Assembly: GCF_003334255.1 (NCBI RefSeq)
Contig: NZ_QOWU01000142.1
Length of the DNA stretch: 1,978 bases
Strand: one strand, 5' to 3'
From: Escherichia coli
GTDB lineage: Bacteria; Pseudomonadota; Gammaproteobacteria; Enterobacterales; Enterobacteriaceae
Position numbers and translations under genes: made by a program. Below the pieces are notes generated by a model that worked only from the letters and a program-made list of their open reading frames with translations, was not told the DNA's origin and ran no database searches. Of this stretch, positions 1,106-1,318 are shown in pieces. The number at the start of each line of letters is the position of its first letter. Position 1 is the first letter of the stretch.

Positions 1106-1261
1106 TTACTCCTCAGGTTCGTAAGCTGTGAAGACAGTGACCTCCGTCTGGCCGGTTCGGATTCGTACCTCGCAGAGGTCTTTCCTCGTTACCAGTGCCG
1201 TCACAATGACGGTAATACAGATGACGATCAGGGCGACTAACATCGCCTTTTGCTGCTTCAT
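1106..1261 (-). CDS. hokD: Hok/Gef family type I toxin (51 aa), HokD/RelF-like
   Basis: Translation from ATG 1261-1259 gives MKQQKAMLVALIVICITVIVTALVTRKDLCEVRIRTGQTEVTVFTAYEPEE, stop TAA at 1108-1106. By memory this is near-identical to E. coli HokD/RelF and very close to HokC/Gef (single TM helix, conserved KDLCEVRIRTGQTEV core). GGAG SD lies 9 nt upstream (1274-1271). The surrounding RNA architecture matches hok/sok. Confidence 0.9.
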   Translation of the reverse strand: MKQQKAMLVALIVICITVIVTALVTRKDLCEVRIRTGQTEVTVFTAYEPEE

Positions 1262-1318
1262 AGCCTGCTTCTCCTTGCCTTTCGGCGTGTAAGAGGCTAA
1301 CCTACATGTGACTAGCAT
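1106..1318 (-). CDS. mok: mok-like (modulation of killing) reading frame, in-frame 19-codon N-terminal extension of hok
   Basis: Track ORF 1106..1318 (70 aa) starts MLVTCRLASYTPKGKEKQA and runs straight into hok. GAGG SD (1330-1327) lies 8 nt upstream of ATG 1318-1316. The same-frame, same-stop arrangement matches chromosomal mokC/hokC as I recall the K-12 annotation. The start region is covered by the predicted Sok antisense RNA. Confidence 0.55.
   Translation of the reverse strand: MLVTCRLASYTPKGKEKQAMKQQKAMLVALIVICITVIVTALVTRKDLCEVRIRTGQTEVTVFTAYEPEE
1275..1303 (+). promoter_or_regulatory. Putative sigma70 promoter of the antisense Sok RNA, inside mok
   Basis: -35 TTGCCT (1275-1280), 17-bp spacer, -10 TAACCT (1298-1303); predicted start near 1310. 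Position and layout parallel the plasmid R1 sok promoter as I recall it (TTGCGC / TATCCT). Confidence 0.45.

What the first reader, a model, noticed from the sequence alone, without database searches (positions are those of the whole stretch)
1106..1318. mok is in the same frame as hok, predicting a Mok-Hok fusion product
The spacing between the mok ATG (1318) and hok ATG (1261) is exactly 57 nt, so ribosomes initiating at mok would make a 70-aa N-terminally extended Hok, not a separate overlapping peptide. In plasmid R1, as I recall, mok and hok are in different frames. If the extended form is made, its activity relative to 51-aa Hok is an open question.
Basis: partly seen in the sequence, partly recalled or inferred. 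Interest (0 to 1): 0.3.

Follow-up and report, generated by a model that had tools for sequence, protein, structure and literature searches.

The report
In-frame mok leader of prophage hok
The upstream "mok" reading frame of this prophage hok/sok toxin-antitoxin locus is in frame with the toxin gene, but this is the usual and already annotated arrangement in the hok family (for example mokC/hokC in E. coli K-12), so the finding is ordinary.

Summary
On the minus strand one ORF runs 1318→1106 (70 aa), and its Met20 (ATG at 1261) is the annotated HokD start. The two ATGs are exactly 57 nt apart.

[quoted passage not shown] Its parts:
- The Rfam hok/sok leader model matches at 117.6 bits.
- The 5' and 3' ends of the mRNA pair with each other (tac/fbi closure).
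- The mok Shine-Dalgarno (SD) sequence is sequestered in a stem.
- A Sok-like antisense RNA lies on the plus strand.

The in-frame state is not unusual, though.
- K-12 RefSeq annotates mokC/hokC and mokA/hokA with a shared stop codon.
- The exact 70-aa protein is already in public databases, on 270 contigs.
- 99 of 118 prophage loci sampled by a leader motif have the 57-nt spacing.

The frame does not look protein-selected.
- Identical Hok proteins occur with 56-, 57- and 58-nt spacings.
- One in-frame variant has a stop codon just before hok.
- The 18 extension codons after the mok ATG (codons 2-19) vary equally at all three codon positions, while hok varies mainly at the third.

The interval holds the Sok promoter, the Sok target and the hok SD. 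Verdict: already known, low interest.

The parts
1106..1318 (-). mok reading frame (70 codons). It is in frame with hok and contains it entirely. Codons 1-19 are the leader part.
   Evidence: ORF list. Aligns with the annotated mokC start of K-12 and the R1 mok start. The exact protein is in public databases.
1106..1261 (-). hok (hokD-type) toxin gene, 51 aa; TAA stop at 1108-1106.
   Evidence: RefSeq annotates hokD here. Pfam HOK_GEF PF01848, E = 3.5e-22. 84% identical to K-12 HokC.
1327..1330 (-). mok Shine-Dalgarno GAGG, 8 nt upstream of the mok ATG (1318-1316).
   Evidence: Read from the sequence. Conserved as GAGGC in nearly all loci surveyed. In R1, mutations in the GAGG abolish toxicity (PMC9841398). 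Paired in a stem in the full-length fold.
1271..1276 (-). hok Shine-Dalgarno AAGGAG, 9 nt upstream of the hok ATG (1261-1259).
   Evidence: Read from the sequence. Nearly invariant among 39 distinct prophage sequences.
1016..1431 (-). Inferred full-length mok-hok mRNA (about 416 nt). The 5' end is placed by homology to the R1/hokC leader and the 3' end at the intrinsic terminator.
   Evidence: The Rfam model starts at 1430. Terminator at 1037-1020 plus a T-run. The MFE fold closes the 5' end on the 3' end, z = -6.7.
1425..1433 (-). tac (translational activator) element at the mRNA 5' end.
   Evidence: 9-nt perfect inverted repeat with 1041-1049 (I4). Paired in the MFE fold.
1041..1049 (-). fbi (fold-back inhibition) element near the mRNA 3' end; pairs with tac.
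1310..1384 (+). Inferred Sok antisense RNA. It has a single-stranded 5' tail complementary to mok nt 1-9 and the mok SD region, followed by a long hairpin and a U-rich end.
   Evidence: Ends placed by alignment to the annotated sokC and sokB of K-12. Fold of 1308-1378: 17-nt free 5' tail plus hairpin, z = -5.2. Ends not mapped experimentally.
1275..1303 (+). Inferred Sok promoter: -35 TTGCCT (1275-1280), 17-nt spacer, -10 TAACCT (1298-1303). It lies wholly inside mok codons 6-15.
   Evidence: Positional homology across loci, with a 17- or 18-nt spacer. The simple consensus scan did not call it, so this is inferred.
1304..1315 (-). Hypervariable 12-nt block (mok nt 4-15). It covers the Sok 5' end/target and the Sok promoter discriminator.
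   Evidence: Per-column entropy. At least 19 variants in the 118 of 121 pattern matches that have a recognisable mok start.
1437..1465 (-). Inferred hok mRNA promoter: -10 TAGAAT at 1442-1437; -35 TTTGCG/TTGCGG at about 1465-1459.
   Evidence: Read from the sequence and aligned with the hokC upstream region. Not called by the consensus scan, so this is inferred.

Best explanation
[quoted passage not shown] It is carried in the late-regulatory region of an E. coli lambdoid prophage, between the DUF551 genes and the DUF968-RusA-Q genes.

By homology with R1, the mechanism would run as follows. The full-length mRNA is locked by tac/fbi pairing, with the mok SD sequestered. 3' trimming lets it refold. 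Sok pairs with the mok initiation region and blocks mok translation. Translation of mok through the hok SD/AUG region is what permits hok translation.

The 57-nt in-frame spacing is the commonest of three tolerated spacings (56, 57 and 58 nt). The interval is packed with nucleic-acid signals: the Sok 5' target, the Sok -10, spacer and -35 on the other strand, and the hok SD. One-nucleotide differences in the Sok promoter spacer (17 or 18 nt) or in the variable block set the frame. In in-frame loci such as this one, ribosomes starting at mok necessarily make a 70-aa N-extended Hok. That product is most likely a tolerated and probably still toxic by-product, not a selected proteoform.

Shown here: the anatomy, the frame, the comparative distribution and the lack of coding constraint on the extension. 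Inferred: the RNA ends, the promoters, actual initiation at 1318, and the fate and activity of the 70-aa product.
For: Identity of the locus:
- Rfam sok/hok leader model, 117.6 bits, full length.
- hokD annotation and prophage context.
- HOK_GEF Pfam match.
- tac/fbi inverted repeat and fold with z = -6.7.
- Sok-like fold and alignment to sokC/sokB.

The in-frame arrangement is known:
- mokC/hokC and mokA/hokA share stop codons in K-12 RefSeq.
- The 70-aa and 69-aa proteins are already deposited.

Frame distribution:
- 74 of 76 close prophage loci with a recognisable mok start have 57 nt.
- In the sample picked by the leader motif, 99 loci have 57 nt, 13 have 58 and 6 have 56.
- In the wider set (Photorhabdus, Pantoea, Citrobacter, Kluyvera, K-12, R1), 26 are in frame, 6 are +1 and 1 is +2.

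The frame is not essential:
- The identical Hok protein occurs with 56-, 57- and 58-nt spacings.
- One in-frame locus has a TAG two codons before the hok ATG.
- The 56-nt loci end mok on the hok start, as ATGA.
- R1-type leaders exist both as 58 nt and as a 57-nt variant that is at least 99% identical in 117 plasmids.

No protein-level constraint on the extension: variable columns at codon positions 1/2/3 are 10/11/11 of 18 in the extension, against 5/0/11 of 50 in hok.

Modular make-up of the interval, with a 17- or 18-nt Sok promoter spacer.

Against: 57 nt is clearly preferred (about 84% of loci), and several lineages reach 57 by different segment lengths: hokC 11+18+13, L089 13+17+12, L110 15+17+10. 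That pattern could reflect selection on the frame rather than only on RNA or promoter geometry. No expression data for this locus were available. The promoters were not called by the simple consensus scan. The sampled loci are phylogenetically non-independent, so the percentages are not event counts.
Confidence: 0.8

Rival explanations
1. The in-frame arrangement is itself selected. The 70-aa Mok-Hok is a functional proteoform, either the main toxin or a modulated or alternative form, and the R1-type out-of-frame mok is the derived exception.
For: The 57-nt spacing dominates in prophage and chromosomal loci of several genera. Different combinations of segment lengths sum to 57. The extension is net basic and hydrophilic (MLVTCRLASYTPKGKEKQA). 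By inference from the positive-inside rule, that is compatible with an N-in membrane topology.
Against: The extension shows no codon-position signature, and second positions vary most. Codons 2-5 are hypervariable. Identical Hok proteins occur with all three frames, and one in-frame locus has a stop before hok. The hok SD and ATG stay invariant in in-frame loci, which suggests the internal start is still used. In R1 the Mok product is dispensable (PMC9841398).
Confidence: 0.1
2. The ATG at 1318 is not used. The locus makes only the 51-aa Hok, or it is a decayed, silent copy, and the long ORF is an accident of the absence of stop codons.
For: RefSeq annotates only the 51-aa hokD here. Many chromosomal hok loci are known to be inactivated. 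In K-12, IS elements adjoin hokA, hokC and hokE, and the hokD leader is replaced by relBE.
Against: The mok ATG and the GAGG upstream of it are invariant among 39 distinct sequences, although the 12 nt next to the ATG are hypervariable. All regulatory elements are present: tac/fbi, the SD-sequestering stem, the Sok hairpin and the terminator. Mutations of the R1 mok start codon abolish toxicity.
Confidence: 0.07

Closest known systems
mokC/hokC/sokC (gef) locus of E. coli K-12
   Same: Same architecture and the same 57-nt in-frame mok-hok spacing with a shared stop codon. Hok is 84% identical. The leader, mok start and Sok region align. MokC (69 aa) is annotated as the N-extended HokC.
   Different: The window copy is prophage-borne. 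It has a 16-nt insertion in the loop of the Sok/SD-sequestering hairpin, a different hypervariable block, and a 17-nt rather than 18-nt inferred Sok promoter spacer. The K-12 hokC locus is flanked by IS186; the window copy looks intact.
hokD (relF) of the Qin prophage, E. coli K-12
   Same: Same Hok subgroup; this is the name RefSeq gives the window gene. Both are prophage-borne.
   Different: In K-12, relBE lies directly upstream of hokD and no mok or sok is annotated. Four of the 80 IMG/VR relatives likewise lack the leader. The window copy has the complete mok/sok leader.
hok/mok/sok of plasmid R1
   Same: Same element set: tac, SD-sequestering stem, mok SD and ATG, Sok promoter inside the mok 5' part, hok SD, fbi and terminator. 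Same 19-codon distance class.
   Different: R1 has a 58-nt spacing, so Mok (70 aa) is read in the +1 frame and ends 4 nt before the hok stop. Hok is only about 35% identical. R1 is plasmid-borne and acts in post-segregational killing.
mokB/hokB/sokB of E. coli K-12
   Same: Chromosomal hok-family locus with mok and sok annotated.
   Different: 58-nt spacing, out of frame. MokB (55 aa) stops 40 nt before the hokB stop.

Membership tests
Hok/Gef toxin family (Pfam PF01848) | Small (about 50 aa) protein matching the HOK_GEF profile, with an N-terminal transmembrane helix and a conserved Cys and C-terminal domain. | tested here: met
   PF01848 E = 3.5e-22 over residues 25-66 of the 70-aa ORF, covering the full model 1-42. 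NCBIfam Hok subfamily NF007279 scores 46 bits, below its 73-bit cutoff. 84% identity to HokC.
[quoted passage not shown] | Structured hok mRNA leader matching the Rfam hok/sok leader model (RF01794). | tested here: met
   117.6 bits against a gathering score of 59, model positions 1-157 of 157, at 1256-1430 on the minus strand.
[quoted passage not shown] | Long-range 5'-3' (tac/fbi) pairing that closes the full-length mRNA, with the mok SD sequestered. | tested here: met
   9-nt perfect inverted repeat 1041-1049 / 1425-1433. The MFE fold pairs the two ends and places CUGAGG in a stem, z = -6.7. This is a prediction only.
[quoted passage not shown] | A cis-encoded antisense Sok RNA overlapping the mok initiation region, with its own promoter. 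| tested here: inconclusive
   Aligns with the annotated sokC and sokB. The fold gives a free 5' tail plus a hairpin, z = -5.2. The promoter is inferred by position and was not called by the consensus scan. There are no transcript data.
[quoted passage not shown] | An upstream overlapping leader ORF (mok) with its own SD, starting about 19 codons before hok. | tested here: met
   GAGG, then 8 nt, then the ATG at 1318, 57 nt before the hok ATG. Aligned with the K-12 mokC and R1 mok starts.
[quoted passage not shown] | Hok translation depends on mok translation and is repressed by Sok; Hok kills when expressed. | not testable with these tools
   Shown experimentally for R1 (PMC9841398; PMC4147584). 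Only inferred for this locus.
R1-type arrangement (mok out of frame with hok) | mok is read in a frame different from hok and has its own stop codon. | tested here: not met
   In the window the spacing is 57 nt and the stop is shared. R1 type has 58 nt and its own stop.

The most novel reading that the evidence does not exclude
The in-frame 57-nt spacing is kept by selection. It is seen in about 84% of prophage copies and is reached through different combinations of segment lengths. On this reading the N-extended 69-71-aa Mok-Hok is a real, functional toxin proteoform in most hok loci. The R1 model, in which Mok is a separate dispensable peptide, would then be the exception rather than the rule.
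Probability: 0.1. Interest if true: 0.35.

Novelty: already known. Interest (0 to 1): 0.08.

Why it matters
It matters little. The arrangement has been in the E. coli K-12 reference annotation for years, as mokC/hokC and mokA/hokA, and the exact 70-aa ORF is already deposited.

The useful residue is a clarification. The frame of mok relative to hok is variable across the family, in all three frames, even between loci that encode identical Hok proteins. This supports the textbook view that the act of translating mok matters, not its product.

A 2025-26 survey of Hok diversity explicitly left Mok unanalysed. The small frame census here is therefore a minor addition, not a discovery. Whether N-extended Hok is made, and whether it is toxic, remains an unanswered but narrow question.

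Tried and rejected
- **Profile scan of genome contigs.** A profile-based scan with a six-member Hok alignment failed because no conserved stretch was available. I used the single protein instead.
- **Other Hok subfamilies in viral contigs.** Scans with R1 Hok and HokB gave 3 and 0 loci. The out-of-frame subfamilies therefore could not be surveyed in depth.
- **Plasmid R1 by accession.** The record KY749247 is not in the plasmid collection. An R1 leader sequence recalled from memory was validated instead: it is at least 99% identical in 2660 plasmids, and all listed top hits are 100% identical.
- **Literature.** Searches found no accessible paper that discusses the in-frame versus out-of-frame issue, ribosome profiling of mokC, or the 1991 gef/orf69 work. 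My memory that Poulsen et al. 1991 described an orf69 containing gef could not be checked.
- **Second Rfam sok hit.** The weak plus-strand hit at 1372-1503 (18 bits) was rejected as a reflection of the palindromic leader hairpin.
- **isrK-like hit.** The hit at 1016-1097 (27 bits against a gathering score of 50) was rejected as the hok 3' terminator region.
- **Sequencing error or pseudogene artefact.** I considered whether the in-frame state could be either. It was rejected because it recurs in hundreds of independent assemblies.

Full report
**What is in the window**

The 1978-base window is 100% identical to a chromosomal segment of E. coli JE86-ST05 and several other strains. It lies in a lambdoid prophage, on the minus strand, between DUF551 pseudogenes on one side and DUF968, RusA and antiterminator Q genes on the other. 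RefSeq annotates a 51-aa hokD at window 1106-1261 on the minus strand. It annotates neither mok nor sok there.

**Check of the observation**

The six-frame ORF list shows one minus-strand ORF, 1106..1318, of 70 aa: MLVTCRLASYTPKGKEKQAMKQQKAML...EPEE. Residue 20 is the annotated Hok start. A script confirms ATG at 1318 and at 1261, exactly 57 nt apart, with no intervening stop codon.

**Is the upstream ATG really mok?**

- The Rfam hok/sok leader model (RF01794) matches 1256-1430 on the minus strand over its full length, at 117.6 bits against a gathering score of 59.
- A GAGG lies 8 nt upstream of the ATG.
- In a multiple alignment the ATG lines up with the annotated mokC start of K-12 and with the mok start of R1-type plasmids.
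- The rest of the hok/sok apparatus is present:
  - A 9-nt perfect complement links the mRNA 5' end (1425-1433) to a site near the 3' end (1041-1049). This is the tac/fbi pair.
  - An intrinsic terminator lies at 1037-1020.
  - The MFE fold of 1431→1016 closes the two ends and buries the mok SD in a stem, with z = -6.7.
  - On the plus strand there is a Sok-like RNA. Alignment to the annotated sokC and sokB places its 5' end at about 1310. It folds as a free 17-nt 5' tail plus a long hairpin, with z = -5.2.
- The protein matches Pfam HOK_GEF at E = 3.5e-22.

**Is the in-frame arrangement unusual?**

A leader 100% identical to the R1 sequence has mok at 516..728 (70 aa, MSSPHQDSLL...) and the hok ATG at 574. 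That is 58 nt, a different frame, with mok's own stop 4 nt before the hok stop. PMC9841398 independently puts the mok start at nt 116-118 and the hok start at nt 174-176.

The K-12 reference genome, however, annotates mokC (16751-16960) and hokC (16751-16903) with a shared stop and 57-nt spacing. It does the same for mokA/hokA. mokB/hokB is 58 nt and out of frame. The 69-aa MokC is UniProt MOKC_ECOLI. The exact 70-aa protein of this window is already in NCBI, IMG and ENA on 270 contigs, named Hok family toxin, HokC/D or hokD. The feature is therefore already known and annotated.

**How common is each frame?**

| Sample | 56 nt | 57 nt (in frame) | 58 nt | No mok start found |
|---|---|---|---|---|
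| 80 close prophage relatives from IMG/VR | 1 | 74 | 1 | 4 |
| 121 matches in 120 prophage stretches picked by the leader motif GCCTCTTAC-N10-13-CAAGGAG | 6 | 99 | 13 | 3 |
| The same motif sample, as 27 distinct interval sequences | 2 | 19 | 6 | – |
| Wider set: Escherichia, Kluyvera, Citrobacter, Pantoea, Photorhabdus, K-12, R1 | 1 | 26 | 6 | – |

The motif sample is independent of the frame and of the Hok protein sequence. The four IMG/VR loci without a mok start have lost the leader, as K-12 hokD has.

R1-type leaders also exist in an in-frame 57-nt form. It is found in pMTY1886 and is at least 99% identical in 117 plasmids. In-frame is the majority state, and all three frames occur.

**Is the frame selected for a protein reason?**

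Three results argue against it.

1. Among 39 distinct 213-nt sequences, hok codons vary at positions 1/2/3 in 5/0/11 of 50 codons, a clear coding signature. The 18 codons after the mok ATG vary in 10/11/11 of 18, with second positions the most variable.
2. The identical Hok protein, MKQQKAMLIALIVICLTVIVTALVTRKDLCEVRIRTGQTEVAVFTAYEPEE, is found behind 56-, 57- and 58-nt intervals. One in-frame locus carries a TAG two codons before the hok ATG, giving a 17-aa mok. In the 56-nt loci, mok ends on the hok start as ATGA.
3. In R1, translation of mok up to the hok initiation region is required, but the Mok product and translation beyond the hok start are not (PMC9841398).

**What the 57 nt are made of**

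Cutting the interval at conserved anchors shows it is filled with nucleic-acid signals. In order:

- the mok ATG;
- a 10-15-nt variable block, which covers the Sok 5' end/target and the Sok promoter discriminator;
- the reverse complement of a Sok -10 (TAACCT here);
- a 17- or 18-nt spacer;
- the reverse complement of a Sok -35 (TTGCCT or TTGACC), which abuts the hok SD;
- 10-13 nt up to the hok ATG.

The 58-nt variants differ by an 18-nt promoter spacer (L095, L103, L034) or a 13-nt variable block (R1). The total is confined to 56-58 nt, so whether mok is in frame turns on a single nucleotide.

One caveat remains. Several lineages reach 57 by different segment combinations: hokC 11+18+13, L089 13+17+12 and L110 15+17+10. 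The sampled loci are also not independent events. Weak selection on the total length, or on the frame, therefore cannot be excluded.

**Mechanism proposed**

This follows the R1 paradigm and is inferred here from conserved anatomy.

1. The full-length mRNA is inert, through tac/fbi closure and the sequestered mok SD.
2. 3' processing refolds it.
3. Sok binds the mok initiation region and blocks mok.
4. Without Sok, ribosomes translating mok open the hok SD/AUG, and Hok is made.

In this locus the mok ribosomes read straight into hok in frame, so they must yield a 70-aa N-extended Hok. The extension is hydrophilic and net basic. By inference from the positive-inside rule, it would stay cytoplasmic and probably leave membrane insertion and toxicity intact.

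The hok SD and ATG remain invariant in in-frame loci. This suggests the internal start is still used. However, the SD overlaps the Sok -35, so this conservation is ambiguous.

**Verdict**

The arrangement is already known and is the commonest state in the family. A recent Hok census deliberately did not analyse Mok, so the frame census here is a small addition. Interest is low.

Noticed in passing
window 1304-1315 (-), mok nt 4-15: A 12-nt hypervariable block sits immediately after the invariant mok ATG. It shows at least 19 variants among prophage loci whose Hok proteins are nearly identical. It covers the inferred Sok 5' end and the Sok promoter discriminator. This may reflect diversification of Sok/target specificity between co-resident copies; E. 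coli genomes carry a median of 2 and up to 16 places matching the window.
   Followed up: partly
window 1477-1498: A perfect 22-nt palindrome, CGATATGGGAATTCCCATATCG, lies just upstream of the inferred hok promoter. No T-run follows it on either strand, so it is not a canonical terminator. It could be a protein-binding site.
   Followed up: no
window 1507-1611 (-) and 1647-1730 (-): Two tiny hydrophobic ORFs lie upstream of hok. One is an annotated 34-aa hypothetical protein. The other is an unannotated 27-aa ORF (MIWPEAFAITGVAMAIAFLVYVICRCG) whose ATG overlaps the stop of the preceding DUF551 pseudogene ORF as ATGA. The only family match is a weak PHROG hit (phrog_38566, E = 0.0035).
   Followed up: partly
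loci from the viral contigs pattern scan (L122-L241; L235 named); L012 and L098: Natural variants of the leader ORF exist: an in-frame TAG two codons before the hok ATG (17-aa mok); 56-nt loci where the mok stop overlaps the hok start (ATGA, 19-aa mok); and one locus (L235) with ACG in place of the mok ATG.
   Followed up: partly
L003 444-659 (pMTY1886) versus L008 516-732 (pAPEC-O2-R): R1-type plasmid hok loci exist in two leader versions that differ by 1 nt in the variable block. One has 58 nt (classic out-of-frame Mok, 70 aa). The other has 57 nt (in-frame 71-aa Mok-Hok). The in-frame leader is at least 99% identical in 117 plasmids.
   Followed up: partly
window 1336-1365 (both strands): The hairpin that forms the Sok terminator stem, and on the mRNA strand the mok-SD-sequestering stem, carries a 16-nt insertion (GCGUCUUGCAGGACGC) relative to the Rfam consensus and to sokC/sokB. 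The insertion adds an extra apical stem.
   Followed up: no
window 1106-1430 / L001 7106-7261: Annotation is inconsistent. RefSeq (PGAP) calls only the 51-aa hokD here, with no mok or sok. GenBank and IMG records hold the same locus as a 70-aa 'Hok family toxin'. For the homologous 69-aa ORF, K-12 RefSeq and UniProt use 'regulatory protein MokC', while other NCBI records call it 'toxin MokC'.
   Followed up: yes
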